Part shown: positions 1 to 26,732 of the stretch, piece after piece
Layout: every line of letters begins with the position of its first letter
Numbering within the stretch: position 1 is the stretch's first letter
Assembly (NCBI GenBank): GCA_965204245.1
Contig: CBDBED010000006.1
Location: 112,029-144,028 of the forward strand
Direction of reading: 5' to 3'
DNA length: 32,000 bases
From: Dehalococcoidia bacterium
Lineage (GTDB): Bacteria > Chloroflexota > Dehalococcoidia > Lucifugimonadales > JAAXIE01
Position numbers and translations under genes: made by a program
The notes under the pieces: generated by a model
What the model was told of the DNA's origin: nothing
Database searches by the model: none
Seen by the model: only the letters and a program-made list of their open reading frames with translations

Positions 1-906
1 CTGGAACTTCATGCCGAGCTTGGCTAGGGAACAGCCGCCAACCACGGCTACCTGATCATAGAGGCCGGAGTTCACCAAGGCGGCCGCCATCACCAAGCCG
101 TGGACGGGGCCGCAGCAGAAGGCTTTGACGTCAGTGCCGGTGGCGTTCTCGCATCCGCAGGCTTCGGCCACGGCCTTAGCTAGATTGCCTCCGCCACGCT
201 GGTAGCGGTCGCCGACGGCTTCCTCACCGCAGTTAATCACGTAGTCGATGCTGGCGGGGTCGATCTTCTCATGATCGATGAGGGTGCGCAGCGCGGCAAC
301 TGCGGTGGCCTTGCACGACAGGTTTTCCAGCAGCACATCTGCGGTGAGTGAGGCATCTTCGGCATGTCCGGATGAGATGCAGCCGACCAAGCGGCCGTCG
401 CGGAGATGGAGGGGGAGGGCGCCCGTGGCGGGATCATGGAGGCTGCCTTCGATGCCACTCAGGGGTTGGTAGGAAGACGCAAGGGCCGGGGCGCCAGCGG
501 ATTCAGCGGAACCGACCTCGGCTGCGAATTCCTCCTCGAGGGACATCAGGTTGAAGGGATCGCATTGCTTGAGGAGGGCGTAAAACTGCTGCTCGGATAG
601 CAGGTTGCCATGGGGGCCGTTGGGCGATGTCTCATTGTCCGCTTGATGCCAAGGGCCTTGGTGCCACGGACGCTCGATGCCCCAGAGTTCGTCGGGCTGG
701 AGATGGCCCAAGAGGACACGATGGGGCGGGTAGGCAGCGGCTTCTTGGAAGCTCCTGAGACGATCCCGAATGAGTGCCAGGAGGCTGGGGTTCTTGGCCA
801 ATTCGCGGCTGGGCTTGGAGCCGTGTTGCACCAAGCCTGGGGCGTGGGCCAAGGAAAAGCGGGCACCCCGCAAGACAGCTTGGCGTGGCCCGTTCCGGGA
901 TGTCAT
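1..906 (-). CDS. thiolase-fold protein (possibly glycine-reductase protein C-like); 3' end runs off the window
   Basis: Hand translation of the minus strand from ATG 904-906 stays open for all 302 codons to position 1. It is absent from the ORF track because no stop lies in the window. An in-frame TAG sits 8 codons upstream of the ATG. The visible C-terminal part EEAVGDRYQRGGGNLAKAVAEACGCENATGTDVKAFCCGPVHGLVMAAALVNSGLYDQVAVVGGCSLAKLG follows the thiolase N-domain layout: nucleophile Cys, then a small-residue helix, then VVGG. Confidence 0.6.
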   Translation of the reverse strand, partial: MTSRNGPRQAVLRGARFSLAHAPGLVQHGSKPSRELAKNPSLLALIRDRLRSFQEAAAYPPHRVLLGHLQPDELWGIERPWHQGPWHQADNETSPNGPHGNLLSEQQFYALLKQCDPFNLMSLEEEFAAEVGSAESAGAPALASSYQPLSGIEGSLHDPATGALPLHLRDGRLVGCISSGHAEDASLTADVLLENLSCKATAVAALRTLIDHEKIDPASIDYVINCGEEAVGDRYQRGGGNLAKAVAEACGCENATGTDVKAFCCGPVHGLVMAAALVNSGLYDQVAVVGGCSLAKLGMKFQ

Positions 907-915
907 GGCGGGAGA

Positions 916-947
916 GACACAGGGGCGCTAGTGTCGCGCCCCGTGTC
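916..947 (-). other. intercistronic GC-rich stem-loop directly after the selenoprotein stop codon
   Basis: Minus-strand RNA GGACACGGGGCGC-GACACUA-GCGCCCCUGUGUC forms about 12 bp with one bulged U. It starts right after TAG (948-950) and ends about 10 nt before ATG 906. No U-tract follows. Confidence 0.45.
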
Positions 948-2135
948 CTACCGGGACAGCCCGAAGGCCGTGCCTTTGACGTCTGAGTCTTCAGAGGAGT
1001 CCATGTGCTTGCCTAGGTCGACGATGAGGTTGCCCATGGCGGTCTCGCCCCAGAACCAGCGATGCAACTCCTCCTCGCCTGCGCTGGGGCGCTGCTCCAT
1101 GCGGGCCTCATAGTAGAAAGCCTTGAGATCGTCGACGCACCAGCGAATGTACAGGGGCTCGGAGACGCCATCGGGACGCTGCGGGGCGTTGCCGTTCTGG
1201 CCTTGGGAGTAGTCCTGCAGGTAGCGGACAATGCCACGAAACTGCCTCTGGGGTACGCCTGTGAGGCCGACGAGAGTGCGTCCGTCCTGATTCTCCACCC
1301 AGCGTTCGTAGTACTCACGGAGGGAGGTCAACTCGTCGGCGGGGTCGGACAGTGCCTTGGTGCCTTCGGCTTGCACCGCCGAGGCTTGCAGCAGGTTGAC
1401 CGGGCCCTCGCCATCCTCGGGGAACTCGGCTAGGACAGGAACATCGTTGCTGGTCAGCAGGTCGAGGGCGGCAGCAATGACCTTGTGCTGGAAGGCAGCG
1501 TCGTTGGCACGGCCAAGAGCAGAGCCGTAGGGGAAGGGGACGGCCAAGGCCCGCGGTGCCTTCACCCGGGCGGCGTGTTCCTTGACCAAGGCGACACAGG
1601 TGGTGCTGAGGCCGGCCTCTTCGAAAACCCTAGCAATCACACAGACTGTGTGGGTGCAGAGGGGTCAAGTGGGTGTCAGGATGACGGCGTCGACTCCTTC
1701 GGCCAAGAGACGCTGGGCGACCTCGGGTGCGCCGTCGGAGAGGATGCGGCTGGGGTCGCGCTGGGCCCCCATGAAGGAGTAGAAGTTCTGAGAGAGGCTG
1801 CCGACCCGCCCTTGGTCTTTGAGTTCCCGCATGCGGTCGACGGGAAAGGTGATGTTGGCGTCTTTATAGAAAGGGACGTGATCGTAGCCGATGCTGCTGT
1901 GGCTCATCAGCACGTCTTTGGCGGCGGCATCGGCGGGGATGACGCGAAAGCCGGAGTCGCCACGCCCGAAGGGCTGGTCGCCACGGAGGTGCAAGCCCGC
2001 GCTGGTGACGAGGGCGACCTTGGCTTGGGAGAGGTCCTTGCTCATAGGGGTGACGGGAGAATCGTCGTGTTCCATGCAGGGGAACATGAGGGCTTGGTTG
2101 CGCTGGGCTTCGCTGAGGTCTTCGAGTCGTGGCAT
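948..2135 (-). CDS. glycine/sarcosine/betaine/D-proline reductase selenoprotein B family (GrdB/PrdB-like) protein with in-frame UGA (Sec) at 1665-1667
   Basis: ORF 1665-2135 and ORF 948-1640 are in the same frame, separated only by TGA plus 8 sense codons. Joined product: ...EGVDAVILTPT-U-PLCTHTVCVIARVFEEAGLSTTCVALV... SD AAGAGGA lies 7 nt before ATG 2135. The GTG at 1640 has no SD and sits inside the hairpin. Confidence 0.75.
1633..1657 (-). promoter_or_regulatory. candidate bacterial SECIS stem-loop
   Basis: RNA after UGA reads CCCCUCU-GCA-CC-CACACA-GUC-UGUGUG-AU-UGC. That gives a 3-bp lower stem, a small internal loop, a perfect 6-bp upper stem and an apical loop GUC about 21-23 nt after the U of UGA. 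Confidence 0.55.
1665..1667 (-). other. in-frame UGA, candidate selenocysteine codon
   Basis: Forward tca at 1665-1667. The reading frame continues unbroken on both sides, and family-typical sequence spans the junction. Confidence 0.7.
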
Positions 2136-2203
2136 CTGTTGTCCTCTTTCTCGTGTCTCGGAGGGGCTGGCGCGCTATGGCGAGGCACCGTGCACCAGAG
2201 AAT

Positions 2204-2548
2204 TCAATCCGAAGAAGCTACTGCCCCCCGTTCGGGCTCCGTTATCGCCTCCTCAACAGTAGCGGTTGCTGCTGGTTTGCACTTAAGAAGGGCCCCTGGA
2301 GGAGGAGTCCCCGCCGTCCGCCCGAAAGCATAGGCCTCTCTGATTTCCTCTTCGGTGTATTGCACCTCGGTCAGGTAGACCACCTTGCCATCCTGCCATG
2401 CGGGGAAGGAGCCAAGCATGGCGATAGCCTCGCACTCGGCCTTGATGGCGGCCCTACGGAGGGCGGCTACGGCGCCTAGGGTGTCCGCGCTTGGCTCATT
2501 GGTAGTTATTACGTAGTTCCTCTTTTGCGCACCATTGGCATCAGACAT
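2204..2548 (-). CDS. hypothetical protein translationally coupled to the zeta-like kinase (candidate cognate partner or antitoxin)
   Basis: ATG at 2546-2548 (MSDANGAQKRNYVITTNEPS...) overlaps the upstream gene stop by 8 nt (ATGTCTGA). The ORF-track entry 2204-2614 is trimmed to this start. No recognisable domain. Confidence 0.5.
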   Translation of the reverse strand: MSDANGAQKRNYVITTNEPSADTLGAVAALRRAAIKAECEAIAMLGSFPAWQDGKVVYLTEVQYTEEEIREAYAFGRTAGTPPPGALLKCKPAATATVEEAITEPERGAVASSD

Positions 2549-3071
2549 CGGCGCGCCTCCCTTCCTCCAGGAGTATCGGTGGAAACTTAGTAGCATCATG
2601 TAGAGCCCACTCATCCACCAAGTCCTTGTATATTAGCTCAAAATTGCGCAAGCCGGAATCGAATCTACGGCGGATTTCCTCTTCGGGCACGTGATGCCCG
2701 CCCCTGCGTACACGATGGGCCACGCGGTCTACAGCTACGTCGGCGCTTGGCAGACGCAGAAAATGAAGTTTCACCCAATAGCCCTGCTGCTGCCATTGCG
2801 GAATCATGCGAGCGAAGCCTCGGCCGCTGAGGGTGATCTCGAAGGCAAAGCTCTCGCCCTGGCGCACGTAGTCGTCGATCATCTCCAGCATGAGCCTGCC
2901 AGCGCGAACGGCTGAAAGCTCTGGTTGGAAGGGGTTGAGGCCTGCGGCTATGAGGTCGGCGTTGATGAAGGTAGGGCAGTCTGCTTCGTTCAACAGGAAC
3001 TCGTTGGCGAAGGTGGTCTTACCTGCTCCGTTGGGGCCGGCGATTATGAGAATCTTCTTGGATGGAGTCAC
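2541..3071 (-). CDS. zeta-toxin-like P-loop kinase / AAA ATPase (COG4185-type)
   Basis: The Walker A motif IIAGPNGAGKTT lies at the N-terminus. The segment FAFEITLSG, the overall size and the layout are typical of zeta/PezT-like kinases. GTG start. Confidence 0.8.
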   Translation of the reverse strand: MTPSKKILIIAGPNGAGKTTFANEFLLNEADCPTFINADLIAAGLNPFQPELSAVRAGRLMLEMIDDYVRQGESFAFEITLSGRGFARMIPQWQQQGYWVKLHFLRLPSADVAVDRVAHRVRRGGHHVPEEEIRRRFDSGLRNFELIYKDLVDEWALHDATKFPPILLEEGRRADV

Positions 3072-4324: not shown

Positions 4325-4680
4325 GCGGATGGGCCAAAGAAAAGTCCTAAAGCCCTAGTTGAACAACGATAGCGCGTATGACTCCCTGCATATCTGCCTC
4401 AGATAGTTCTCCTGATTTTGGGCGAATCGAAGTTTACCGACTGTGGCCACCTGATCCGCCATTGCTTGGGACGAACCCCGTTGACCTCCACCAGCGCTTC
4501 TCCGGGATGTTCCATATCTGAATAAAACGAGTTTGACAATCATGTTGAAATGGAACATCACTTCCTCCGAGCAGGTGACACGCCCCTGCTGGGGCCGTAG
4601 ACAATTGAAACAGGAGCTAGTGAAGCCAGATGCAATGGAACGGTAGGGCCTACCCACAGCCCCCACACGCTCGCTTCAGC

Positions 4681-5811
4681 ATGAACATCCGCTGGTTCGT
4701 CACCATCGCCTTGGCGCTCGCCACCTTGGTCGTCATCGTTAGCTGTGGGCCGGATGTGACTCCCACGCCTACGCCTATGGCGACTCCGGCCGCCCTGCCT
4801 ATGCCCACACCTGAAACGACCTCGACCGCCACACCCACGCCCATAACTACGCCGACCCCCACGCCCACGCCCATAACTACGCCGACTCCCACACCCACGC
4901 CTACAGAGACCGCCACACCAACATCTGAGCCAACAGCCTCTCTGGCGGATCTGTTCCTCACCGATACCACACTGGGCGGCGAGGTTATGTCCCGCCTCTC
5001 CGGGTCAGAGACGGACTGCATCCGCGCAGCGCTCGGAGAAGCCGTGTACGCAGCCGTTCTAAACCTCCCGATGGCGACATTGGTCAGGGAAAGTGGGGGC
5101 GGAGGCGCCGGTTCATTCCTCCGATGTCTAACGGAAGACAACCTGGTGCTGATGGGCGAGGTGCTTATAGACTCCCATCACGGGAGGACCGACATTGAGG
5201 CGCGTGCATGCCGCGTCGCCGCAGGGCGGGCGAACCCGGACGTGGTCCGCATCAGGTTTGCCCTGCTGCGCTCGGAGATGGGGACGCTCGACGCTGAGTC
5301 GCTGTTATCCTCTGCCAAGGAACAGTTCGACTGCCTCAACGCGCTGGATCAAGCGAACCTCCTCGTCCGCCTTACTACGACGCTGGACGAGGAGGATACG
5401 TTCACCGGGCAGGATATCGTTGAGATGGTCTCCGAAGGAGAGGTGTCTTGCATACGCGAAGGGGTCGGCGATGCGCTATTCGCCGGATTCCTGAGTTCCA
5501 CGGTCACCGGAGCGTTCGCACCGTCAGCCTCCCTGCTTGATTGCCTCACGCTGGAAAGCAAGACAGCGATATTCGCGGCATTTACGGCATCAAGGGTGGC
5601 AGGGCTGCGTGAAGAGTCTGTGCTATGCATGGCCAACCTCGTCGCGGACAGCCCCAACATCCTAGCCCTCGGGTTCGGGACCCTTGATGTGGACCAGGTG
5701 GAAGAAAGCGAACTGGCTGGCCTCGGCGACGAGGCTGCCAAGTTCTTCGACTGCCTCAACTCGGAAGAGGTAATCCAGGTATTGACGTTGCCTGCAGTCG
5801 TTGAACAGTAG
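4681..5811 (+). CDS. secreted lipoprotein with Thr/Pro-rich linker and two 4-Cys repeat modules, function unknown
   Basis: MNIRWFVTIALALATLVVIVSCG is a signal peptide plus lipobox-like Cys. A TPTP linker follows, then 8 Cys in a duplicated pattern. An alternative upstream ATG lies at 4630. Confidence 0.7.
   Translation: MNIRWFVTIALALATLVVIVSCGPDVTPTPTPMATPAALPMPTPETTSTATPTPITTPTPTPTPITTPTPTPTPTETATPTSEPTASLADLFLTDTTLGGEVMSRLSGSETDCIRAALGEAVYAAVLNLPMATLVRESGGGGAGSFLRCLTEDNLVLMGEVLIDSHHGRTDIEARACRVAAGRANPDVVRIRFALLRSEMGTLDAESLLSSAKEQFDCLNALDQANLLVRLTTTLDEEDTFTGQDIVEMVSEGEVSCIREGVGDALFAGFLSSTVTGAFAPSASLLDCLTLESKTAIFAAFTASRVAGLREESVLCMANLVADSPNILALGFGTLDVDQVEESELAGLGDEAAKFFDCLNSEEVIQVLTLPAVVEQ
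4831..4904 (+). repeat. 30-bp tandem repeat (about 2.4 copies) encoding TPTPITTPTP inside the lipoprotein linker
   Basis: 4831-4860 acacccacgcccataactacgccgaccccc and 4861-4890 acgcccacgcccataactacgccgactccc differ at 2 positions. A partial third copy follows. Confidence 0.85.
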
Positions 5812-7870: not shown

Positions 7871-8315
7871 CTACTCAGCAAGGAAGTCTTCCAAAACGGC
7901 GATGGGCAAACCAACGACACCACGAAAGTCGGTGTCGTTGGTGATGAAGAGAGCGCACCCAGCTCGAAGTGCCGTCGCAGCGTGAAGTGCGTCGGGCGTC
8001 GCCAAGCCTGTCTCGGCCCGAATGTGCGCGGCGTCTTCGAAGACTGGATAGGAGGCTTCCAGCAGTCTCACTGCATTTGACTCGAATAGCTCGCGATATT
8101 GCATTTCGATCTCTGTATTGCCATCGCGAAGCGACTTGACCAGTGCTTCCACGATGAGGATAGGACTGCTTACGATGGTGAGATTGCCGTCCTTGTGCTT
8201 CCTGCCACATCGGTTCCAGCAGCGTACGGTACGGCTCCACCCGTTCGACGCTGTAGATAAGGCTGCTGGCATCCAAATAGACCAAGCCAGTTAACGGCAG
8301 GATTAACGGTCCCAC
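7871..8315 (-). pseudogene. vapC: PIN-domain VapC toxin interrupted by a frameshift
   Basis: The N-terminal part (GPLILPLTGLVYLDASSLIYSVERVEPYRTLLEPMWQEA) is in the frame of ORF 7875-8315. The C-terminal part (KDGNLTIVSSPILIVEALV...TPDALHAATA...FITNDTDF) is in the frame of ORF 7871-8272. The switch lies around 8190-8206. Confidence 0.7.
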
Positions 8316-10261: not shown

Positions 10262-11542
10262 TCAAGGCTGGTTTGTCCCAATGTCAGCCCAGCTATCAGC
10301 CTCCATGAAGTGGGCCCACCGCGAGTAGAAGCGCCGGTGGGTGTTCTCGCTCATGCGGAAATCACTGGTCCACGACATCAAATCCTCGTTGAAGGAGTCG
10401 TGTCCGATGCCCATCTGGTTGTTGAGAGGGATGCGCCGTGACACGGGCCCCTTGGCGGTGACGGTGCATTCCTGCCAGTTGTCCATATCATCCTGCTCGA
10501 AGGTGCCCGACGGGCTGAACCCGCGGATAGCCCCCAAGCGGACCATCTCCTTGATCTCCGGCGGGGCTGCCTTGTCGCAGAAGGCCCACGCCCTGACCTC
10601 CACCTTGTCGGGCCCCTTGGGATGCCACACCCGGAAGGTGCGGGAGCCAGCACGCAACATGGAGAAGTTGGGGAAGACCGTGGCGACGAAGGGGTTGAGC
10701 AGGTCGCGCCTCGGCCCCAAGCGGTCCCTGATTTCCTGCTTGACGTCCGCCTCGTACTGGCGGAGGGCAGGTATAGGCGGCGTGGGGTCGTCGTCGGGGC
10801 CGAAACAAATCATATTGGCGGGCCCAGCGGCAACGATGGAGCCTCCCGTCTCAGGCTCGATGGCTGTTGAGCTGGCGAACGCGTTCCTAATGGCCGACAG
10901 ATGGCTCCATCCCACATGGTAGGCGTCACCACCGAAATTCTCGGCAGCGAACTTCCAGTTGCAGGGGATTGTCCACTTGAACATGCCCCCGAACACCTCC
11001 ACCCCGCCCTCGCGCCGGTCGAAGAAGTTGTCGAGGTACCAAGTCGCCTCACCCAAGTAGTCCAGCAGTGGCGGGGCGTCGGCATCGAAAGTGGCGAACA
11101 CCAGACCCTTGTACATCTCCAGCTTGGCCACGGGCACGAGGCCCCACTTGGAGGTGTCAAGCTCGTCGTAGTAAGCCTCTTTCAAACTGGGGACCGCAAT
11201 GAGCTTGCCATCGGTGCCATAGGTCCAGCCGTGATAGGCGCAGACGAAAGCGGACGCGTTACCCGCATCGGCCCGGCACACCCGGTTCCCTCTATGACGG
11301 CAGATATTGAGGAAGGCCCCGATCCTGCCCGTGGAATCGCGGGTGACCAGCACGGGGTCCTCGCCCATATAGGTGGAGAAGAAGTCCCCCGGTTGGGCCA
11401 CTTGGCTTTCATGACAGAGAAACAGCCAGGAGCGGGCAAAAATCTGCTCCAGTTCCTGCTGGTAAATCTCGTCATCAATGAATATGCGCCGGTCCACCAG
11501 CCCATCGCGCGCATTGACCAGTCCCCTGACTTCGGTAGCCAT
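10262..11542 (-). CDS. Rieske ring-hydroxylating dioxygenase alpha subunit (set 1, biphenyl/toluene-type)
   Basis: Rieske motif CRHRGNRVC...CAYHGW. Catalytic domain NWKFAAENFGGDAYHVGWSH. Start trimmed to ATG 11542 (MATEVRG...). Confidence 0.9.
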   Translation of the reverse strand: MATEVRGLVNARDGLVDRRIFIDDEIYQQELEQIFARSWLFLCHESQVAQPGDFFSTYMGEDPVLVTRDSTGRIGAFLNICRHRGNRVCRADAGNASAFVCAYHGWTYGTDGKLIAVPSLKEAYYDELDTSKWGLVPVAKLEMYKGLVFATFDADAPPLLDYLGEATWYLDNFFDRREGGVEVFGGMFKWTIPCNWKFAAENFGGDAYHVGWSHLSAIRNAFASSTAIEPETGGSIVAAGPANMICFGPDDDPTPPIPALRQYEADVKQEIRDRLGPRRDLLNPFVATVFPNFSMLRAGSRTFRVWHPKGPDKVEVRAWAFCDKAAPPEIKEMVRLGAIRGFSPSGTFEQDDMDNWQECTVTAKGPVSRRIPLNNQMGIGHDSFNEDLMSWTSDFRMSENTHRRFYSRWAHFMEADSWADIGTNQP

Positions 11543-11666
11543 GAACCCACCTACGCCATACCTGCTGGAACCTTGACAACGGCCCAGTTCACTACCGGCC
11601 GCCCGTATGGACGGGTGTAGCATGGGGTGTTGGGGTTGTCAAGCTAAGTCCTGACTGACCTCGCCC

Positions 11667-16150: not shown

Positions 16151-17131
16151 GTGGTCATCTCGCTGCTCACATTCAAGACCGTGCTGCTCCTCTCGGTGTG
16201 GGTCTTGATTTCTGCTTTTTTCGCTGGATTCCTCTCGATTCCTCTCCTTCTCCTGTGTGCCTTAACTTTGATGTTCGTTCATCGCCATTTCTTGGAACTT
16301 CAGACTGTGCGAGTAATGGCGTGGATAATCGCTGCCTTCGTTTGCGTTTCCTTTTTCTCTGCAGGTGTGCGGATGTTGACCACAATCGACATATTTGAGA
16401 GCACTCCTTGGTTAGGCGCGTCGCTCCGATCTCCAAGTACATACTGGTTCGAATTATTCCTCGGAACCGTGGCAGGCCTGAAATGGCCTAAGGCGTTGTT
16501 CCCATCCTTTCAATTGCTACAAACCCGTCGGGAGTTCAGCATCGCCGCCAATATCGTCGTGATAGCCCCCTTCGCATTCATTAGCGGATTCTTGCTAACA
16601 CTGAACGGCATCTGGCCGTTGTGGATACCTCTGGCGCTGGAATGGTTTCCAGTACTCAGTGTTGTGTGGTATTTCGGGTCTGTAGCCTCCGCATTACTGG
16701 TTGTTGTACTGCTGGCGGCAATATCAGTAGAGTGGCCCGGCTTCACAGCACAAACACGGCGTGTGGTTCTCGGTGGGCTCTCCGCGATCGCCGTGACGAC
16801 CATTTTGCAGGTGCCTTTGCGTGAGTTAGCGGATGTTGTAGTCCAACTGGCCCAGCAGAGTGTTTACTTCTCCCAACCCCGCGTTACCGCCGGTACCGTG
16901 ATTCTGATCTGGGTCTCAAGTGCAAAGGTGGTCTCCGGGTTGGGACTCATCTTGGGAATTTGGGCGGGATTGCGATGGCCGTACCGGCTATTGTTGCCTG
17001 CCCGGCTATCGGAAGGCACGCCGAGGGTTAGGTTTGCTAAGAATGTTGCAGCGGTGGTGGTCTACTTGATACTGGCTCTCCTCGCACACGTCACCATCTC
17101 ACTTTGGATGACATTTCTGGTTTGGGACTAG
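16151..17131 (+). CDS. polytopic membrane protein, unknown family (paralog B)
   Basis: GTG start with SD GGGAGAA 6-7 nt upstream. Collinear motif matches to paralog A. Confidence 0.7.
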   Translation: MVISLLTFKTVLLLSVWVLISAFFAGFLSIPLLLLCALTLMFVHRHFLELQTVRVMAWIIAAFVCVSFFSAGVRMLTTIDIFESTPWLGASLRSPSTYWFELFLGTVAGLKWPKALFPSFQLLQTRREFSIAANIVVIAPFAFISGFLLTLNGIWPLWIPLALEWFPVLSVVWYFGSVASALLVVVLLAAISVEWPGFTAQTRRVVLGGLSAIAVTTILQVPLRELADVVVQLAQQSVYFSQPRVTAGTVILIWVSSAKVVSGLGLILGIWAGLRWPYRLLLPARLSEGTPRVRFAKNVAAVVVYLILALLAHVTISLWMTFLVWD

Positions 17132-17199
17132 TCACCCGCTTCAACTCTTTCCACAATCAACATCTTGACATCAAAAACACACGACATCATGATGCCTGT

Positions 17200-17463
17200 A
17201 TGAGAACCACACTCACACTCGACGACGACGTAGCCAACTACCTCAAGGAGCAGTCCCTGCTCCTGAACAAGCCCTTCAAGCAGGTGGTCAACGACACCCT
17301 GCGCCGGGGGATGTCGCCCACCGGGCCCACCGAGCGGCCTAAGTTCAAGGTCAGGCCCTTCAGCAGTGGCGGGTTCCTTCCGGGGGTAGACCCTGACAAC
17401 CCTAAGAAGTACATGGAAGACCTCGAGATTCAAGAGTTCTTCAGAAAGAATCCCGACTGGTGA
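17200..17463 (+). CDS. vapB: VapB-family antitoxin (MRTTLxLDDD type)
   Basis: MRTTLTLDDDVANYLKEQ... is the hallmark N-terminus of the VapB antitoxin family. The stop overlaps a GTGA junction with the toxin-start remnant. Confidence 0.75.
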   Translation: MRTTLTLDDDVANYLKEQSLLLNKPFKQVVNDTLRRGMSPTGPTERPKFKVRPFSSGGFLPGVDPDNPKKYMEDLEIQEFFRKNPDW

Positions 17464-17522: not shown

Positions 17523-17741
17523 ATGTTAGAGATTACCTGTTTGAATTGCCAGCAAATTGTGAAGTGCGACACGCTTCACCATACTTGCCCCAATGACAAG
17601 TGCGGTGTGAAGTGGCAAGTTCTGGATGGTGACCCTAAGTTCATCGTAACCGGCTACGCGCCGGGTATCAATCCATTGAAACTCAATCAACTGCTCGATG
17701 AGCTTGAAACCGAGGATTTCCTGAGCAAGAACTCGAAGTGA
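17523..17741 (+). CDS. zinc-ribbon antitoxin-like protein (chimeric VapB C-terminus)
   Basis: N-terminal CLNC...CPNDKC. The C-terminus PGINPLKLNQLLDELETEDFLSKN parallels PGVDPDNPKKYMEDLEIQEFFRKN of the preceding VapB. SD GGAGAA lies upstream. The junction with vapC is a GTGA overlap. Confidence 0.65.
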   Translation: MLEITCLNCQQIVKCDTLHHTCPNDKCGVKWQVLDGDPKFIVTGYAPGINPLKLNQLLDELETEDFLSKNSK

Positions 17742-18166
17742 TCATTCCCGACACCAACTTGTTAGTCTACGCCCACAACACCGCCGACCCTAACTACGGG
17801 CTGGCCCACGACTGGTGGAATGAACTTATGGAAGGCAGTGAGCAGGTTGGCCTCCCTTGGGTCGTCACGACAGGATTCGCGCGGCTGATGACGAGTTCCA
17901 GGTTGCTCAGTCGACCACTTACACCGGAAGCAGTATTCGATTCCGTACAGGAGTGGTTCCAATTCCCCCACATCTCCCCCATCAACCCCGGCGCCGACCA
18001 TCTCACTCTCTTCAGGCAGAACCTCACCGCAGCGGGCGTCGGCGGCAACCTTGTCACCGATGCCCACATAGCCGCCCTCGCCATGGAACACCAAGCCGAG
18101 GTCCACTCCAACGATGCCGACTTCTCCCGCTTCCCCGGCCTTCGCTGGCGCAACCCGCTCCGATGA
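17738..18166 (+). CDS. vapC: PIN-domain ribonuclease toxin VapC
   Basis: IIPDTNLLVYA (first Asp), the GLPWVVTTGF region, TDAHIAALA and SNDADF give the four conserved acidic positions of PIN. Confidence 0.85.
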   Translation: MIIPDTNLLVYAHNTADPNYGLAHDWWNELMEGSEQVGLPWVVTTGFARLMTSSRLLSRPLTPEAVFDSVQEWFQFPHISPINPGADHLTLFRQNLTAAGVGGNLVTDAHIAALAMEHQAEVHSNDADFSRFPGLRWRNPLR

Positions 18167-18307: not shown

Positions 18308-18772
18308 ATGGCCGACCGTCTTACCTTGGATGAAGCTCGCGCCATTATCGACCGTGCCGTCGAGAAGGGCACGGAGGTGGGCTACAACTCCTGCTGGGCC
18401 ATCACCGACGAGGGCGGAAACGTCCTCTCCATCTCCAGGATGGACGGGGCCCCAGCGGCCGCCGTGCCCACCGCGCGGGCAAAGGCCTACTTGGCTGCCG
18501 TGATGAAGGGCCCCACGGGCGGCTTCTCCGAGCGCATGCACCGCGTCCCCGAACGCTGGGCTGCCTACCAGCAGTTCCTCCCCCAGCCGGGCTTCCCCGG
18601 CCCAGGCGGTATGCCCATCCACAAGGACGGCGATGTGGTCGGCGGCTTCTCCAGCAGCCTGTCGGTGCGTGTGCCCGACAAAGAAGTGCCCAAGGAGGAC
18701 GGGCAGGACGTCAACCTAGAGGACTATGTCACCTGCTACGCCCTCGATGTCCCCTACAAGACCCAGCATTAG
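18308..18772 (+). CDS. GlcG/HbpS-like (DUF336) heme-binding protein
   Basis: LTLDEARAIIDRAVEKG...AITDEGGNVLSISRMDGA...ARAKAY...GGMPI..DGDVVGG. SD TAGGAG. Confidence 0.8.
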   Translation: MADRLTLDEARAIIDRAVEKGTEVGYNSCWAITDEGGNVLSISRMDGAPAAAVPTARAKAYLAAVMKGPTGGFSERMHRVPERWAAYQQFLPQPGFPGPGGMPIHKDGDVVGGFSSSLSVRVPDKEVPKEDGQDVNLEDYVTCYALDVPYKTQH

Positions 18773-18816
18773 TCAAGACAAGCGCGGGCGCACTGCCCGC
18801 CAGAGGTTGTACGAAA

Positions 18817-19206
18817 ATGCCGATGACACTGGCCGAGGCCCGAGGCTACGCAGACAAGGCGATCTCCAAGGCCCGCGAAATGGGACTCCAGATATCCCTA
18901 GCCGTGGTGGATGAGTTCGGACAACTCGTTCAAATGGACCGCATGGACGGCGCGTCCCTCATGTCGCCCGACATCGCCGAGGCCAAGGCCGTCACCGCCC
19001 TCAACTTCCGCCGTCCCACCAGTGCCGTTGCCCAGCAGGTCAACCCCGACATCCTGCGCAGCATCCAAGCCTCGGTCCACTTCAACATCCTAGCCGCCGC
19101 TGGTGGCGTCCCCATCTACAGGGACGGCGACCTGGCCGGGGCCATAGGCGTCAGCGGGGCCACCGGGGAGCAGGACGAGGAAGTGGCGAGCGCAGGGGCG
19201 GCATAA
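18817..19206 (+). CDS. GlcG/HbpS-like (DUF336) heme-binding protein, tandem paralog
   Basis: MTLAEARGYADKAISKAREMGLQISLAVVDEFGQLVQMDRMDGA...GGVPIYRDGDLAGAIGVSGATGEQDEE. Confidence 0.85.
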   Translation: MPMTLAEARGYADKAISKAREMGLQISLAVVDEFGQLVQMDRMDGASLMSPDIAEAKAVTALNFRRPTSAVAQQVNPDILRSIQASVHFNILAAAGGVPIYRDGDLAGAIGVSGATGEQDEEVASAGAA

Positions 19207-21169: not shown

Positions 21170-21685
21170 TCAGAGAATAAAGGTGAGGTTATAAAGAGGC
21201 ATATCCCGGTCTATCAGCAGCACCTTCTTCAGTGCTATGCGCCAGCCGCCATCCTGCGACACCAACCGATAGAAGCAGCGCCCCGCCAGCGCCCGCTGGT
21301 TCCCAAGCCCTCTCTGTAGCGCTTGGTGGTCCCCAGGGCGCAACTCAAGGATGAGCACATTGCACCGCAGGTGCGCTTCCCCATCCGGGGCAGGCTCCAC
21401 TTCAACATTCGACAGATAGTGGATTGTGCGCGAGGCGGGCAACTGGGAATACCGCGCGCCCTGCCGTAGCTGGTGTACCCGCTTTTCCCGCTGCAATGGG
21501 TCGTCGTGTATCACCGAGGCTTGCCGCTCCGGGTCATCCTCCTCGTCAATGGGCAGCCAGTACATGCCATCGGAGGTGAAGAGCCCCAGCCACTCCTCCA
21601 ACCGGTCTTCGTCCAGCAGACGAGCCTCCATGTAAAGGAAGTCCTCGGCCTCTTGGCGGGTCATGTTGCGTGCTAGGGTAGCCAT
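21170..21685 (-). CDS. aromatic ring-hydroxylating dioxygenase beta subunit (set 2)
   Basis: QEAEDFLYMEARLLDEDRLEEWLGLFTSDGMYWLP is the NTF2-like beta-subunit signature. ATG lies 3 nt after the alpha stop. Confidence 0.9.
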   Translation of the reverse strand: MATLARNMTRQEAEDFLYMEARLLDEDRLEEWLGLFTSDGMYWLPIDEEDDPERQASVIHDDPLQREKRVHQLRQGARYSQLPASRTIHYLSNVEVEPAPDGEAHLRCNVLILELRPGDHQALQRGLGNQRALAGRCFYRLVSQDGGWRIALKKVLLIDRDMPLYNLTFIL

Positions 21686-21688
21686 CCG

Positions 21689-22969
21689 TTAGCCCCCATG
21701 CCCATTGCCGTTCCCCATGATCCTCGACCAAGCGCGCCAGACCGCCCGCTGCGGCACTTCATCCATGCGGCCCCCCACCGTCTCCCCATCAGGCCGTCGC
21801 TCCTCCCGCATCAAGCCACGGGACAAATGCAGCCAGTCCAGCTTGTTGGCCGCCAGCCCGCTCTGTACGCGGGCATATATCTCCGCATCGTCGGTATTCA
21901 CCGCTCCGGATATGAACGACCCTGAAGACACCGATATGTCTTGGGCGATGCGCCGGAAGATCGCCTTGTTCACCCGGTCAGGGACTTCCTCCAGTTCCAC
22001 GGGGTATTCATAGATGATGGTGCGGTCCACTGCCACCGGCTGTATCACCCGGAACTTGAACTCCATCAAGTGCAGGTTCGGAAACAGCGCGATATGGCGC
22101 CTCATATAGAGTTGGTCCGCCTTGTCCTTGCCGTAAGTCTCCCGCAGCAAGTCCAAGTGCTGGTCAAACTCCTCTCCCACCTCAGGAGGCACATCATTAC
22201 GCTCAGCCTCCAGCAGGCCATGCCCCTGTGGGAACCCGCGGGTGCAGCCCGGCCAGCCCACGGTCCTGCCGCGAGAGCCATACTCCTCGATGGTCTGCAG
22301 GGCCGATTCGTGTACGTAGCGGGCATGCCACCCATCGGTGGAGTTCTCGATTTGGCACTTCCAGTTGGCAGGGAAATACGCCCGGTATGGCTTGCCCAAC
22401 TGCACCCGGCCCACTGGTGAATGGTCAAACCAGTAGTCCACGTAGGTCTTCAGGGCACCCAGGTGCTCTTCCAACGAGGGCACGTTCTCATTGAAACTGG
22501 CGAAAATCATACCCCGGCACGACTCCACTCTCGGGGCCATCACCAGACCGCCGATTCCGTCTTCCCAACCTTCCGGGTATCCCTCGCGGTCAGCCACGCC
22601 CACCACTGCGCCGTCGTTCCGGTAGACCCAACTATGGTACGGACACCGGAAAAAGCGCGAGTTGCCCCGCTCGTCACGACATACGGCAGCCCCACGGTGG
22701 CGGCAGATGTTCAGCAGCACGTGGACTTGGTCTTCAGAACTTCGGGTAACGATTACCGGCATCCGGCCGATGGCCGCAGTGCGGTAATCTCCAGGCTGAG
22801 CAATCTCACTCTCATGGGCCACATACACCCAGTTGTTCTCGAAGATGTTCCGCATCTCCTGCTCGAACACGGCAGGGTCTGCATAGGCCCTGGTGTGCAC
22901 CCTGAAGTTGTCTCTCTCCTCCGACACCAAGTGGTCGTAGGTAGTCCCCAAGTGAGTCTCCGAAATCAT
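21689..22969 (-). CDS. Rieske ring-hydroxylating dioxygenase alpha subunit (set 2, divergent type)
   Basis: CRHRGAAVC...CPYHSW, then NWKCQIENSTDGWHARYVHES. ATG 22969 with SD GGAGG 8 nt upstream is preferred over TTG 22984. Confidence 0.9.
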   Translation of the reverse strand: MISETHLGTTYDHLVSEERDNFRVHTRAYADPAVFEQEMRNIFENNWVYVAHESEIAQPGDYRTAAIGRMPVIVTRSSEDQVHVLLNICRHRGAAVCRDERGNSRFFRCPYHSWVYRNDGAVVGVADREGYPEGWEDGIGGLVMAPRVESCRGMIFASFNENVPSLEEHLGALKTYVDYWFDHSPVGRVQLGKPYRAYFPANWKCQIENSTDGWHARYVHESALQTIEEYGSRGRTVGWPGCTRGFPQGHGLLEAERNDVPPEVGEEFDQHLDLLRETYGKDKADQLYMRRHIALFPNLHLMEFKFRVIQPVAVDRTIIYEYPVELEEVPDRVNKAIFRRIAQDISVSSGSFISGAVNTDDAEIYARVQSGLAANKLDWLHLSRGLMREERRPDGETVGGRMDEVPQRAVWRAWSRIMGNGNGHGG

Positions 22970-23039
22970 ACTAGTAGCCTCCAAAGGCGTTACTTGGATT
23001 CGACGGTGCGTGGGAGCAGCGACGAGGATTAGCCTATTC

Positions 23040-25311: not shown

Positions 25312-26199
25312 ATGCGTGTAGGATTCATCGGAACAGGCACCATGGGCCACCCCATGTGTAGCTGCCTGCTGGACGCCGGCTACGACCTCACTGTCAACGA
25401 CCTCCGCCGCGAGGCCACCACCGACCTCTGCGAGCGTGGCGCTAACTGGGCCGACACCGCGCGGCAGGTGGCAGAAGCGTGCGAAGTTGTCTTCACTTCG
25501 CTACCGGGCCCCTACGAGATGGAAAAAGTCGCCCTCGACCCCGAAAACGGCATCCTCGCAGGCCTCGCCCCCGGCAGTGCCTATTTCGACATGACCACCA
25601 ACTCCCCCAACGTCGTCCAGCGCGTCGCCGAGGCCTTCGCCGCCAAGGGTGTCGACCTCATGGACGCCCCCGTAAGCCAACGCCCCCCCAACATGACCAT
25701 CATGGCAGCGGGCCGCCGCGAGACCTTCGACAAATACAAGCCCGTGCTGGATGCCATGGGCAAGAACGTCTTCTACGTCGGCGAGAGCACTAAGGGCTGC
25801 ACCGCCAAGCTGGTGACCCAGCACCTCGGCTACACCAACTTCATCGCTGCCGCCGAGGGTCTCCTCATGGCCGTCAAGTCGGGCGTGGACCTCAACGTCC
25901 TAGCCCAGATCGTCCCCGTCAGCGCTGGCGCATCCCGCGCTTTCGACCACTACCCACGCTCCGTGTACGACGGCGTGTTCCCCTCCATCGGCAGCCTCGA
26001 CATCGTGGCCAAAGACCTCTCTCTTGCCTGCGACCTAGCCCGCCAACTCGCCGTGCCCTCTCCCATCGGCGACATCGCCGACAACGTCTTCAAGCGTGCC
26101 CAAGCTCAAGGCCTGGGCGAGAAGGGCTTCCCAGCCGCCGTACAGATTCTCGAGCAGATGGCCGACGCCGAAATTCGCGCCCCCAAAGAAGGCGAGTAA
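25312..26199 (+). CDS. NAD(P)-dependent 3-hydroxyisobutyrate/6-phosphogluconate dehydrogenase-family oxidoreductase
   Basis: MRVGFIGTGTMGHPM Rossmann motif and the central segment GESTKGCTAKLVTQ, which sits where HIBADH-family enzymes carry their conserved lysine. SD AAGGAG lies before ATG 25312. Confidence 0.9.
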   Translation: MRVGFIGTGTMGHPMCSCLLDAGYDLTVNDLRREATTDLCERGANWADTARQVAEACEVVFTSLPGPYEMEKVALDPENGILAGLAPGSAYFDMTTNSPNVVQRVAEAFAAKGVDLMDAPVSQRPPNMTIMAAGRRETFDKYKPVLDAMGKNVFYVGESTKGCTAKLVTQHLGYTNFIAAAEGLLMAVKSGVDLNVLAQIVPVSAGASRAFDHYPRSVYDGVFPSIGSLDIVAKDLSLACDLARQLAVPSPIGDIADNVFKRAQAQGLGEKGFPAAVQILEQMADAEIRAPKEGE

Positions 26200-26732
26200 T
26201 GTCCGAGCAACTGTCCCCTGCGATACAGCGCCTGCTTCTTACAAAAGAAGTAGAGGAGTTCTTTTACAACGAGGCCGAACTCCTTGACCAGCGCCGCTAC
26301 GAGGAGTGGCTCGACCTCTTTACCGACGACACCCACTACTTCATGCCCATGCGCCGCAACGTCAAGTTCGATCAGACAGCCCGCGAAAACACCACCGGGG
26401 TCGGCGACATGTCATGGTTCGACGAGGGCAAGGAGACCCTGAGCCAGCGCGTCCGCCAGATCCTCACCGGCATTCACTGGGCCGAGGAGCCCCAGTCCCG
26501 CGTCTGCCACATCGTCTCCAACGTCCAAGTCCTGCGGGAAGAAGGCGACGAGGTAACCACCAAGAGCCGCTTCGTCGTCTACCGCAACCGCGTCGAGACC
26601 GAGACCGACTTCTTCGTCGGCAAACGCCAGGACGTGCTGCGCAAAGTCGACGGCCAGTGGAAAATAGCCAGCCGCGAAATCACCCTCGACCAGAACGTCC
26701 TCCTAGCCAAGAACCTCACTGTCTTCTTCTAG
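26199..26732 (+). CDS. aromatic ring-hydroxylating dioxygenase beta subunit (set 3, paralog of set 1)
   Basis: EEFFYNEAELLDQRRYEEWLDLFTDDTHYFMP... and LDQNVLLAKNLTVFF. ATG overlaps the upstream TAA (TAATG). Confidence 0.9.
   Translation: MSEQLSPAIQRLLLTKEVEEFFYNEAELLDQRRYEEWLDLFTDDTHYFMPMRRNVKFDQTARENTTGVGDMSWFDEGKETLSQRVRQILTGIHWAEEPQSRVCHIVSNVQVLREEGDEVTTKSRFVVYRNRVETETDFFVGKRQDVLRKVDGQWKIASREITLDQNVLLAKNLTVFF

What the first reader, a model, noticed from the sequence alone, without database searches (positions are those of the whole stretch)
948..2135. Two ORFs are one GrdB/PrdB-family gene read through an in-frame TGA: probable selenoprotein
ORF 1665-2135 ends ...EGVDAVILTPT-TGA. ORF 948-1640 is in the same frame only 8 sense codons later. 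Family-typical sequence runs straight across the junction: TPT-U-PLCTHTVCVIARVFEEAGLSTTCVALV...ALAVPFPYGSALG. In the glycine/sarcosine/betaine/D-proline reductase B family, the redox-active Sec sits just before an xxC and the ...R..E.aG.pT.. segment. The annotated GTG start at 1640 has no SD and lies inside a hairpin. TGA is a genuine stop elsewhere in the window (2541, 17461, 17739), so this is local recoding rather than a reassigned code.
Basis: partly seen in the sequence, partly recalled or inferred. Interest (0 to 1): 0.75.

Follow-up and report, generated by a model that had tools for sequence, protein, structure and literature searches.

The report
PrdB-family selenoprotein gene split by TGA
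Two adjacent open reading frames are really one 395-residue gene of the glycine/proline-reductase "selenoprotein B" family, in which an in-frame TGA most likely encodes selenocysteine; this is a correct call, but the selenoprotein family has been known from marine metagenomes since 2005.

Summary
On the minus strand, ORF 2135..1665 ends in TGA (1667-1665). The same frame runs on to TAG (950-948), giving 395 codons.

NCBIfam models for PrdB and for the selenoprotein-B subfamily align straight across the TGA. The Pfam GRDB model ends exactly one residue before it.

All 81 TGA-carrying relatives examined keep TGA at this exact column, with both halves in one frame and an invariant U-P-x-C motif. 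They are mostly Dehalococcoidia/SAR202, with some Entotheonella, at 54-86% identity. Full-length homologues mostly carry Cys there, and so does a bona fide PrdB (C151).

Thirteen bases after the TGA lies a 5-bp hairpin with an N-G-U-N-N loop. It is paired in all 80 distinct sequences. One pair switches G-C/A-U at least three times independently, linking a non-synonymous site to a synonymous one. This fits a bacterial SECIS element.

TGA is an ordinary stop for 6 of 20 other genes in the window. Four sister genomes carry grdA and a grdB-like gene with in-frame TGA immediately downstream.

The protein is not a true PrdB or GrdB. It scores below both cut-offs, has no PrdA neighbour, and carries an extra uncharacterised helical C-terminal domain. 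"PrdB" selenoproteins of this kind are already catalogued, so this is a new member of a known kind.

The parts
948..2135 (-). Single coding sequence of 395 codons (ATG 2135-2133, UGA-Sec 1667-1665, stop TAG 950-948): a PrdB/GrdB-superfamily selenoprotein
2142..2147 (-). Shine-Dalgarno-like AGAGGA, 6 nt upstream of the ATG
   Evidence: sequence read directly
1665..1667 (-). In-frame TGA = codon 157, predicted selenocysteine; first residue of the invariant U-P-x-C motif (Cys160 = 1658-1656)
   Evidence: TGA at this column in 81/81 relatives and TGT in the Cys form. Cys in full-length homologues and in true PrdB.
1638..1652 (-). Core of the predicted bacterial SECIS element: 5-bp helix (1652-1648 with 1642-1638) closing the loop 1647-1643 (A-G-U-C-U; family consensus N-G-U-N-N). 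It begins 13 nt after the UGA.
   Evidence: Paired in 80/80 distinct sequences. One pair is G-C 43 / A-U 36 / G-U 1 / broken 0, with at least 3 independent switches on a tree. It is absent from the Cys form L002.
1621..1668 (-). Extended lower stems of the hairpin in this sequence (1668-1665/1624-1621, 1663-1660/1631-1628, 1657-1655/1635-1633); less conserved
   Evidence: lower helix cells 50-95% paired; pair 21:37 shows G-C, U-A and A-U
1449..2081 (-). PrdB-like alpha/beta catalytic domain (residues about 19-229)
   Evidence: Pfam PF07355 (58.4 bits), TIGR04483 (152 bits) and TIGR01918 (75.1 bits). AlphaFold model of homologue P0022 with pLDDT above 85 over this domain.
951..1343 (-). Family-specific all-helical C-terminal domain (residues about 265-395) after a disordered linker; absent from PrdB and GrdB; no known family
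   Evidence: Conserved in relatives. Helices 266-393 in the model. No Pfam, PDB-sequence or Foldseek match.
1..906 (-). Next gene downstream, cut by the window edge: grdC (glycine/sarcosine/betaine reductase complex component C, beta subunit). This is context and possibly the same operon.
   Evidence: NF040746 E = 2.7e-89 over model positions 1-294 of 477. The full-length orthologue in L001 scores 607 bits against a cut-off of 450.

Best explanation
Window 2135..948 (minus strand) is one gene for a 395-residue selenoprotein of the glycine/sarcosine/betaine/D-proline reductase 'protein B' superfamily.

**Recoding.** During translation, the UGA at codon 157 is read as selenocysteine. A hairpin 13-27 nt downstream (a 5-bp apical helix with a G-U-containing loop) acts as a bacterial SECIS element. 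It recruits SelB carrying Sec-tRNA(Sec) to the ribosome.

**Chemistry.** Sec157 and Cys160 (U-P-L-C) sit at the position of the catalytic Sec and resolving Cys of PrdB and GrdB. They most likely cycle between selenol/thiol and selenenyl-sulfide while reducing a substrate.

**What is shown.** One reading frame; conservation of the TGA; Sec/Cys correspondence with homologues; a covarying hairpin; superfamily membership.

**What is inferred.** SelB dependence, the redox cycle, and the partners.

**What is unknown.** The substrate. In this lineage the gene sits directly upstream of grdC, and in sister genomes upstream of grdC-grdA-grdE-like-grdB-like. It may therefore serve that divergent Grd-type reductase. 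In 75 more distant relatives it stands alone, so an autonomous redox function for the family is at least as likely.
For: - **One frame, good start.** A single frame with a good SD and ATG at 2135. There is no SD before the internal GTG.
- **Family models span the TGA.** TIGR04483 covers residues 28-228. TIGR01918 scores 75.1 bits against a cut-off of 65.45. Pfam GRDB ends at residue 156, just before the TGA.
- **TGA conserved.** It sits at the same column in 80 species-level genomes plus L001, at 54-86% identity. Both halves are in frame, and the 8 codons between the TGA and the supposed start are conserved as protein.
- **Cys in homologues.** The column is Cys in full-length homologues and in a true PrdB. 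It aligns with the TGA of a GrdB-like gene.
- **Hairpin.** Paired in 80/80 distinct sequences. It shows a G-C/A-U switch between a non-synonymous first codon position and a synonymous third position, at least 3 independent events, one G-U intermediate, and an invariant loop G. The hairpin is absent in the Cys form.
- **TGA is a normal stop elsewhere.** It ends 6 of 20 other ORFs in the window.
- **Sec use in the clade.** Four sister genomes have grdA (CFV-U-T) and a grdB-like gene with in-frame TGA right downstream.
- **No conserved internal start.** The GTG is GTT in L079, and gene callers chose different starts for the downstream half.
Against: - No selA, selB, selD or tRNA-Sec lies in the 32-kb window. 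The source genome could not be retrieved.
- The hairpin's folding energy in this single sequence is unremarkable (z = -1.25), and it lies in conserved coding sequence.
- Only one distinct Cys-form DNA sequence was available as a no-hairpin control.
- No proteomic or 75Se evidence exists.
- The link to the grd cluster is seen only in one closely related clade, so it is not independent evidence of function.
Confidence: 0.92

Rival explanations
1. The TGA is a real stop. The gene is split or decayed, and the two halves are made as separate polypeptides (156 aa and 230 aa from the GTG at 1640), or only the first is made.
For: Gene callers in public data annotate exactly these two pieces (156-161 aa and 229-232 aa) in hundreds of assemblies. 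TGA is a genuine stop elsewhere in the window.
Against: - A decayed gene would not keep TGA at one column in 81 lineages while the flanking codons diverge to 54% identity.
- The 8 codons between the TGA and the GTG are conserved as protein, including the invariant P-x-C.
- There is no SD before the GTG.
- The GTG is not conserved as a start (GTT in L079).
- Cys-containing homologues are single 380-420-aa chains.
- The split would cut the active-site motif.
Confidence: 0.03
2. The TGA is a sequencing or assembly error for TGT/TGC (Cys).
For: A single-base difference separates TGA from the TGT seen in the Cys form (L002).
Against: The same TGA is present in 81 independent assemblies, many of them complete long-read MAG chromosomes. 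A covarying hairpin accompanies it and is absent from the Cys form.
Confidence: 0.01
3. The UGA is read through, but not as selenocysteine. It could be decoded by a near-cognate tRNA as Cys or Trp, or by the Sec machinery loaded with Cys when selenium is scarce.
For: The Sec machinery was not observed for this genome. Cys is functionally tolerated at this position in homologues.
Against: The SECIS-type hairpin is placed at the canonical distance and has a conserved G-U loop. GrdA, which the 2005 survey reported as having no known Cys homologs (PMC1088965), also has an in-frame TGA in the sister genomes. Efficient SECIS-independent read-through of a stop that is used normally in the same genome would be unusual.
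Confidence: 0.04

Closest known systems
D-proline reductase subunit PrdB (TIGR04483; Clostridium sticklandii / C. difficile type)
   Same: Best-scoring specific model (152 bits, residues 28-228). It has the same alpha/beta domain with Sec/Cys at the same column followed by x-x-C (U-G-T-C in PrdB, U-P-L-C here). Like PrdB, it lacks the N-terminal half of GrdB.
   Different: The score is half the equivalog cut-off (300). No PrdA proprotein gene is adjacent in the window or in any of the 80 loci examined. It carries an extra helical C-terminal domain of about 130 aa. The hosts are Dehalococcoidia/SAR202 and Entotheonella rather than Stickland-fermenting clostridia.
Glycine/sarcosine/betaine reductase selenoprotein B (GrdB/GrdF/GrdH; TIGR01918 subfamily, Pfam PF07355)
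   Same: It passes the subfamily cut-off (75.1 against 65.45 bits) and the Pfam GRDB cut-off (58.4 against 22). The Sec column is identical to the TGA of the GrdB-like gene in sister genomes. In this lineage the gene lies next to grdC and, in sister genomes, grdA, grdE-like and grdB-like genes.
   Different: It lacks the first roughly 200 residues of GrdB. The motif is UxxC, not UxxCxxC. It scores 75 bits against equivalog cut-offs of 602-800. Most family members are not near any grd gene.
'Proline reductase PrdB' selenoprotein family of marine metagenomes (Zhang, Fomenko & Gladyshev 2005, PMC1088965; Zhang & Gladyshev 2008, PMC2398784)
   Same: These are UxxC selenoproteins with Pfam PF07355, abundant in ocean samples (42 sequences in the Sargasso Sea; 235 Sec and 110 Cys forms in GOS). 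At least one listed Sargasso sequence (AACY01584242...LLTPVuPLCTRT...) has the same motif and a long C-terminal extension.
   Different: Most of the listed Sargasso sequences inspected are the short form, about 250 aa, ending in a P-F/Y-R-W motif. Those papers treat the family as PrdB. They do not describe the C-terminal domain, the Dehalococcoidia hosts or the missing PrdA partner.

Membership tests
Bacterial selenoprotein (UGA-Sec recoding) | In-frame UGA with conserved coding sequence on both sides in one frame | tested here: met
   81/81 relatives have TGA at the same column, with both halves in frame.
Bacterial selenoprotein (UGA-Sec recoding) | Homologues carry Cys at the position aligned with the UGA | tested here: met
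   Cys in P0022, P0023, P0241, P0242 and most of the 28 aligned homologues. C151 of a true PrdB also aligns there.
Bacterial selenoprotein (UGA-Sec recoding) | SECIS hairpin immediately downstream of the UGA, with G/U in the apical loop about 16-37 nt from the UGA (criterion recalled from the bSECISearch model, not checked in a paper here) | tested here: met
   The helix at 1652-1648/1642-1638 is 100% paired, with compensatory G-C/A-U changes. The loop G is 21 nt from the U of the UGA and is invariant. No Rfam family covers bacterial SECIS elements, so searches are uninformative.
Bacterial selenoprotein (UGA-Sec recoding) | Genome encodes selA, selB, selD and tRNA-Sec | not testable with these tools
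   None lies in the window, and the source genome was not retrievable. Indirect support: four sister genomes have grdA and a grdB-like gene with in-frame TGA.
Bacterial selenoprotein (UGA-Sec recoding) | Selenium demonstrated in the protein | not testable with these tools
   This needs 75Se labelling or mass spectrometry.
GrdB/PrdB superfamily (TIGR01918 / PF07355) | Score above the curated cut-off of the family model | tested here: met
   TIGR01918 scores 75.1 bits against 65.45. PF07355 scores 58.4 bits against 22.
D-proline reductase PrdB (TIGR04483 equivalog) | Score above the equivalog cut-off (300 bits) | tested here: not met
   The target scores 152.4 bits. A true PrdB (P0334) scores 453 bits.
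D-proline reductase PrdB (TIGR04483 equivalog) | Partner proprotein PrdA (pyruvoyl enzyme) encoded nearby | tested here: not met
   No PrdA or Gly_reductase-family gene is adjacent in the window. No conserved neighbour appears across the 80 loci. The GrdE-like gene in sister genomes belongs to the grd cluster.
Glycine reductase GrdB (TIGR01917) / GrdF / GrdH | Full-length protein of about 430 aa including the N-terminal half, a UxxCxxC motif, and an equivalog score | tested here: not met
   Only model positions of about 204-422 are matched. Scores are 69-75 bits against cut-offs of 602-800. The motif is U-P-L-C-T-H-T, and the later Cys165 is not conserved.

The most novel reading that the evidence does not exclude
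The long two-domain proteins may be a functionally distinct, stand-alone selenoenzyme family rather than D-proline reductase subunits. They consist of a PrdB-like U-P-x-C domain plus a unique helical C-terminal domain. They are found in at least 276 species-level genomes of Dehalococcoidia/SAR202, Entotheonella and allies, without PrdA. They would use a protein partner or substrate supplied by the C-terminal domain. In this particular lineage the family would have been recruited into a divergent Grd-type reductase whose GrdB-like subunit has lost both Cys of the UxxCxxC motif (U-G-T-S-T-R-S). The protein might then supply the missing resolving thiol.
Probability: 0.25. Interest if true: 0.55.

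Novelty: new member of a known kind. Interest (0 to 1): 0.3.

Why it matters
**Annotation.** Gene callers split this gene into a "PrdB" or "selenoprotein B family" fragment and a "hypothetical protein" in hundreds of public Dehalococcoidia/SAR202 and Entotheonella assemblies. Joining the pieces restores a complete enzyme and marks these genomes as selenocysteine users.

**Biology.** The find is modest. PrdB-type UxxC selenoproteins have been listed among the most abundant marine selenoproteins since 2005.

**What remains open.**
- What a PrdB-like selenoprotein does in organisms without PrdA.
- What its conserved helical C-terminal domain is for.
- Whether its position at the head of a divergent grd-like cluster in this lineage is functional.

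Tried and rejected
- **Sec machinery in the window.** ARAGORN found no tRNA at all. Pfam scans of about 30 ORFs found no SelA, SelB or SelD.
- **tRNA-Sec near the gene in relatives.** None was found in 60 related loci.
- **Source contig by exact protein look-up.** It is not on record. The nearest relative is a 1.3-kb TARA scaffold.
- **Rfam.** No hits at gathering threshold for the window, and only noise around the TGA. Bacterial SECIS elements are not modelled there.
- **C-terminal domain alone against Pfam.** Nothing, even at E = 10.
- **A conserved partner gene.** Clustering all flanking ORFs of 80 loci showed only clade-level synteny (lactamase_B, glyoxalase, cobalamin genes in about 30 loci) and no universal neighbour. 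Adjacency to the grd cluster is limited to the 85%-identity clade.
- **Submitting the joined protein (U written as C).** The full-length Cys homologue P0022 was used instead for that search and for structure prediction.
- **Single-sequence folding of the hairpin.** It is not significant on its own (z = -1.25). The case for a SECIS element rests on the comparative data.

Full report
**1. What the sequence shows**

Read on the minus strand, an ATG at 2135-2133 is preceded by AGAGGA six bases upstream (2147-2142). It opens a frame that reaches TGA at 1667-1665. The same frame continues through eight sense codons (P-L-C-T-H-T-V-C), past the GTG at 1640-1638 that mechanical ORF finding takes as a start, and ends at TAG 950-948. 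The joined product has 395 residues, with the TGA at position 157.

No Shine-Dalgarno sequence precedes the GTG. TGA terminates 6 of 20 other ORFs in the window (most Pfam-supported), so the genetic code is not reassigned.

**2. Family assignment across the junction**

With Cys written at position 157:
- Pfam GRDB (PF07355) matches residues 19-156 to model positions 207-347 of 347. The model ends exactly before the TGA.
- The NCBIfam models are built on full selenoproteins and run straight through it. PrdB (TIGR04483) covers residues 28-228 at 152 bits. The subfamily model TIGR01918 ([quoted passage not shown]) covers 18-229 at 75.1 bits, above its cut-off of 65.45.
- All specific equivalogs are missed by a wide margin. 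PrdB scores 152 against 300. GrdB, GrdF and GrdH score about 70-75 against 602-800.

**3. Comparative test of the TGA**

A protein search returned almost only 229-232-aa C-terminal pieces and 156-161-aa N-terminal pieces, so the same split occurs in hundreds of assemblies. JGI calls the N-terminal pieces "D-proline reductase (dithiol) PrdB". NCBI calls them [quoted passage not shown].

A scan of one genome per species found 276 genomes with a relative. The best 80 are mostly Dehalococcoidia (including SAR202), with several Candidatus Entotheonella, at 54-86% identity.

In all 80, and in L001, the codon aligned with residue 157 is TGA. The N- and C-terminal halves share one frame, and U-P-x-C is invariant. 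The only exception among the loci held is the full-length Cys form (P0023; L002 and L003), which has TGT.

A sensitive search from the Cys form P0022 found 2,327 relatives. In an alignment of 28 of them, most of the 380-420-aa two-domain proteins have Cys at this column. So does P0334, a bona fide PrdB (453 bits against a cut-off of 300), at C151 in G-G-C-G-T-C. The column also coincides with the in-frame TGA of a GrdB-like gene in a sister genome (GVDAVVLTSA-U against GVDAVILTPT-U). This is the classical Sec/Cys signature.

**4. The recoding signal**

Thirteen bases after the UGA there is a hairpin. In the window, 1652-1648 pairs with 1642-1638 around the loop 1647-1643, and weaker lower stems reach back to the UGA.

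On an ungapped alignment of 81 sequences, the five apical pairs form standard pairs in every one of 80 distinct sequences. The loop is N-G-U-N-N with the G invariant, 21 nt from the U of the UGA.

One pair is G-C in 43 sequences, A-U in 36, G-U in 1 and broken in none. The 5' partner is the first base of codon 163 (Thr ACN or Ala GCN). The 3' partner is the third base of codon 165 (AGU/UGU or AGC). A non-synonymous change is thus matched by a synonymous one, which protein-level selection does not explain.

On a neighbour-joining tree the pair changes state at least four times. That corresponds to at least three independent double changes plus the G-U intermediate L066. Another pair (21:37) shows G-C, U-A and A-U. 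The Cys-form sequence cannot form the helix, although only one such sequence was available.

The single-sequence folding energy is unremarkable (z = -1.25), and Rfam has no model for bacterial SECIS elements. The SECIS assignment therefore rests on the comparative evidence. It also rests on agreement with the published bacterial SECIS geometry, which I cite from memory.

**5. Is the lineage a selenocysteine user?**

The window has no tRNA genes and no SelA, SelB or SelD. Its own proteins are not in the exact-match collection, so the machinery could not be checked directly.

The window is syntenic with L001, a 3.4-Mb Dehalococcoidia chromosome at 85% identity. Both have Rieske oxygenase, racemase, SDR, amidohydrolase and zeta-toxin-like ATPase genes, a small ORF, then the split gene, then grdC.

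In L001, L004, L005 and L006 the cluster continues with:
- grdA, carrying C-F-V-TGA-T;
- a GrdE-like gene;
- a GrdB-like gene, carrying L-T-S-A-TGA-G.

That makes three in-frame TGAs at known Sec positions within 6-7 kb in four species. In the window only the first 302 residues of grdC are visible (906..1; NF040746, E = 2.7e-89).

**6. What kind of protein it is**

An AlphaFold model of the Cys homologue P0022 (47% identical, same length) has a mean pLDDT of 85.6. It shows an alpha/beta domain (about 1-240) with the U/C-x-x-C at the start of a helix after a beta strand, a disordered linker (243-262), and an all-helical domain (266-393).

The helical domain is conserved in the family (R-x-C-x-D-D-L-K-A-F-Y-Y-E-A-R; W-F-W-G-x-T). 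It has no Pfam match, no PDB relative by sequence or profile and no convincing Foldseek match (TM 0.26 or lower). True PrdB (about 240 aa) lacks it.

No PrdA-type gene is adjacent. Clustering of all flanking ORFs in 80 loci found no universally conserved neighbour. The grd genes are adjacent only in the closely related 85%-identity clade.

The protein is therefore a member of the GrdB/PrdB superfamily, but not PrdB and not GrdB.

The most likely chemistry, by analogy with the family (established knowledge, not tested here), is a Sec157 nucleophile resolved by Cys160 to a selenenyl-sulfide, which an external reductant then reduces. Whether it acts within the neighbouring Grd-type complex of this lineage or alone is open. 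I put about 0.3 on the former and 0.6 on the latter.

**7. Comparison with the literature**

- "Proline reductase PrdB" with a UxxC motif was the third most abundant known selenoprotein family in the Sargasso Sea (42 sequences; PMC1088965).
- It was among the top families in the GOS data (235 Sec and 110 Cys forms, PF07355; PMC2398784).
- "Proline reductase" selenoproteins were also listed in non-clostridial genomes such as Anaeromyxobacter and Geobacter (PMC1794560).
- The Sargasso supplement includes short forms and at least one long form with the same ...L-T-P-V-u-P-L-C-T-R-T... motif and a C-terminal extension (AACY01584242).
- Full-text searches for PrdB-like, selenoprotein plus SAR202, and PrdB plus sponge symbionts returned nothing. 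I found no paper that describes the C-terminal domain, the Dehalococcoidia distribution or the missing PrdA partner.

**8. Verdict**

The probability that this is a single Sec-encoding gene is about 0.92. Rivals are a true split gene (0.03), an assembly error (0.01) and non-Sec read-through (0.04).

It is a new member of a known kind. Interest is low to moderate (0.3). The practical value is correcting a systematic mis-annotation, and the open question is the function of the two-domain PrdB-like family.

Noticed in passing
L001:10742-15740 (also L004, L005, L006); window 1-906 is its first gene: Directly downstream of the target, sister genomes carry grdC, grdA (Sec), a GrdE-like gene and a GrdB-like gene (Sec). 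The GrdE-like and GrdB-like proteins score far below the glycine, sarcosine and betaine equivalog cut-offs. The best GrdE-like hits are GrdG (185 bits) and the fluoroacetate reductase subunit FarE (175 bits). No GrdD-type gene lies within 10 kb. This looks like a divergent Grd-type reductase of unknown substrate in Dehalococcoidia.
   Followed up: partly
L001:15444-15540 (the same in L004, L005, L006): The GrdB-like selenoprotein has U-G-T-S-T-R-S after the Sec codon. Both Cys residues of the canonical GrdB UxxCxxC motif are Ser, and this is conserved in four species. The adjacent PrdB-like protein keeps U-P-L-C.
   Followed up: partly
window 907-953 (minus strand): The 41-nt spacer between the target's stop and the grdC start contains a strong hairpin (-29.7 kcal/mol, z = -4.3, 0 of 200 shuffles as stable) with no T-run. 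It is not conserved in L001, L005 or L006.
   Followed up: partly
window 951-1343 (minus strand): The conserved all-helical C-terminal domain of the family, about 130 aa, has no Pfam family, no PDB relative and no Foldseek match. It is also present in many Cys-containing 380-420-aa homologues.
   Followed up: partly
window 2204-3071 (minus strand): A zeta-toxin/AAA_33-like P-loop ATPase (2541-3071) overlaps a 136-aa ORF without known domains (2204-2614) immediately upstream of the target. The same pair occurs in L001. It may be a toxin-antitoxin-like module.
   Followed up: no
window 7871-8272 (-), 17738-18166 (+): Two PIN-domain genes. The second is preceded by a 119-aa ORF (17104-17463) with no family. 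They are probably VapBC-type toxin-antitoxin pairs.
   Followed up: no
window 10262-11623, 21170-22984, 26199-26732: Several Rieske ring-hydroxylating oxygenase alpha and beta subunit genes occur, together with luciferase-like monooxygenase, SDR and amidohydrolase genes. This paralogue-rich catabolic repertoire is of the kind reported for SAR202 Chloroflexota (from memory).
   Followed up: no
window 4630-5811 (+): A 393-aa predicted secreted or anchored protein has a long Thr/Pro-rich repeat (TPTPTP...) after an N-terminal hydrophobic segment. It has no Pfam match.
   Followed up: no
window 18308-19206 (+): Two tandem HbpS-like (PF03928) haem-degrading/GlcG-type genes.
   Followed up: no
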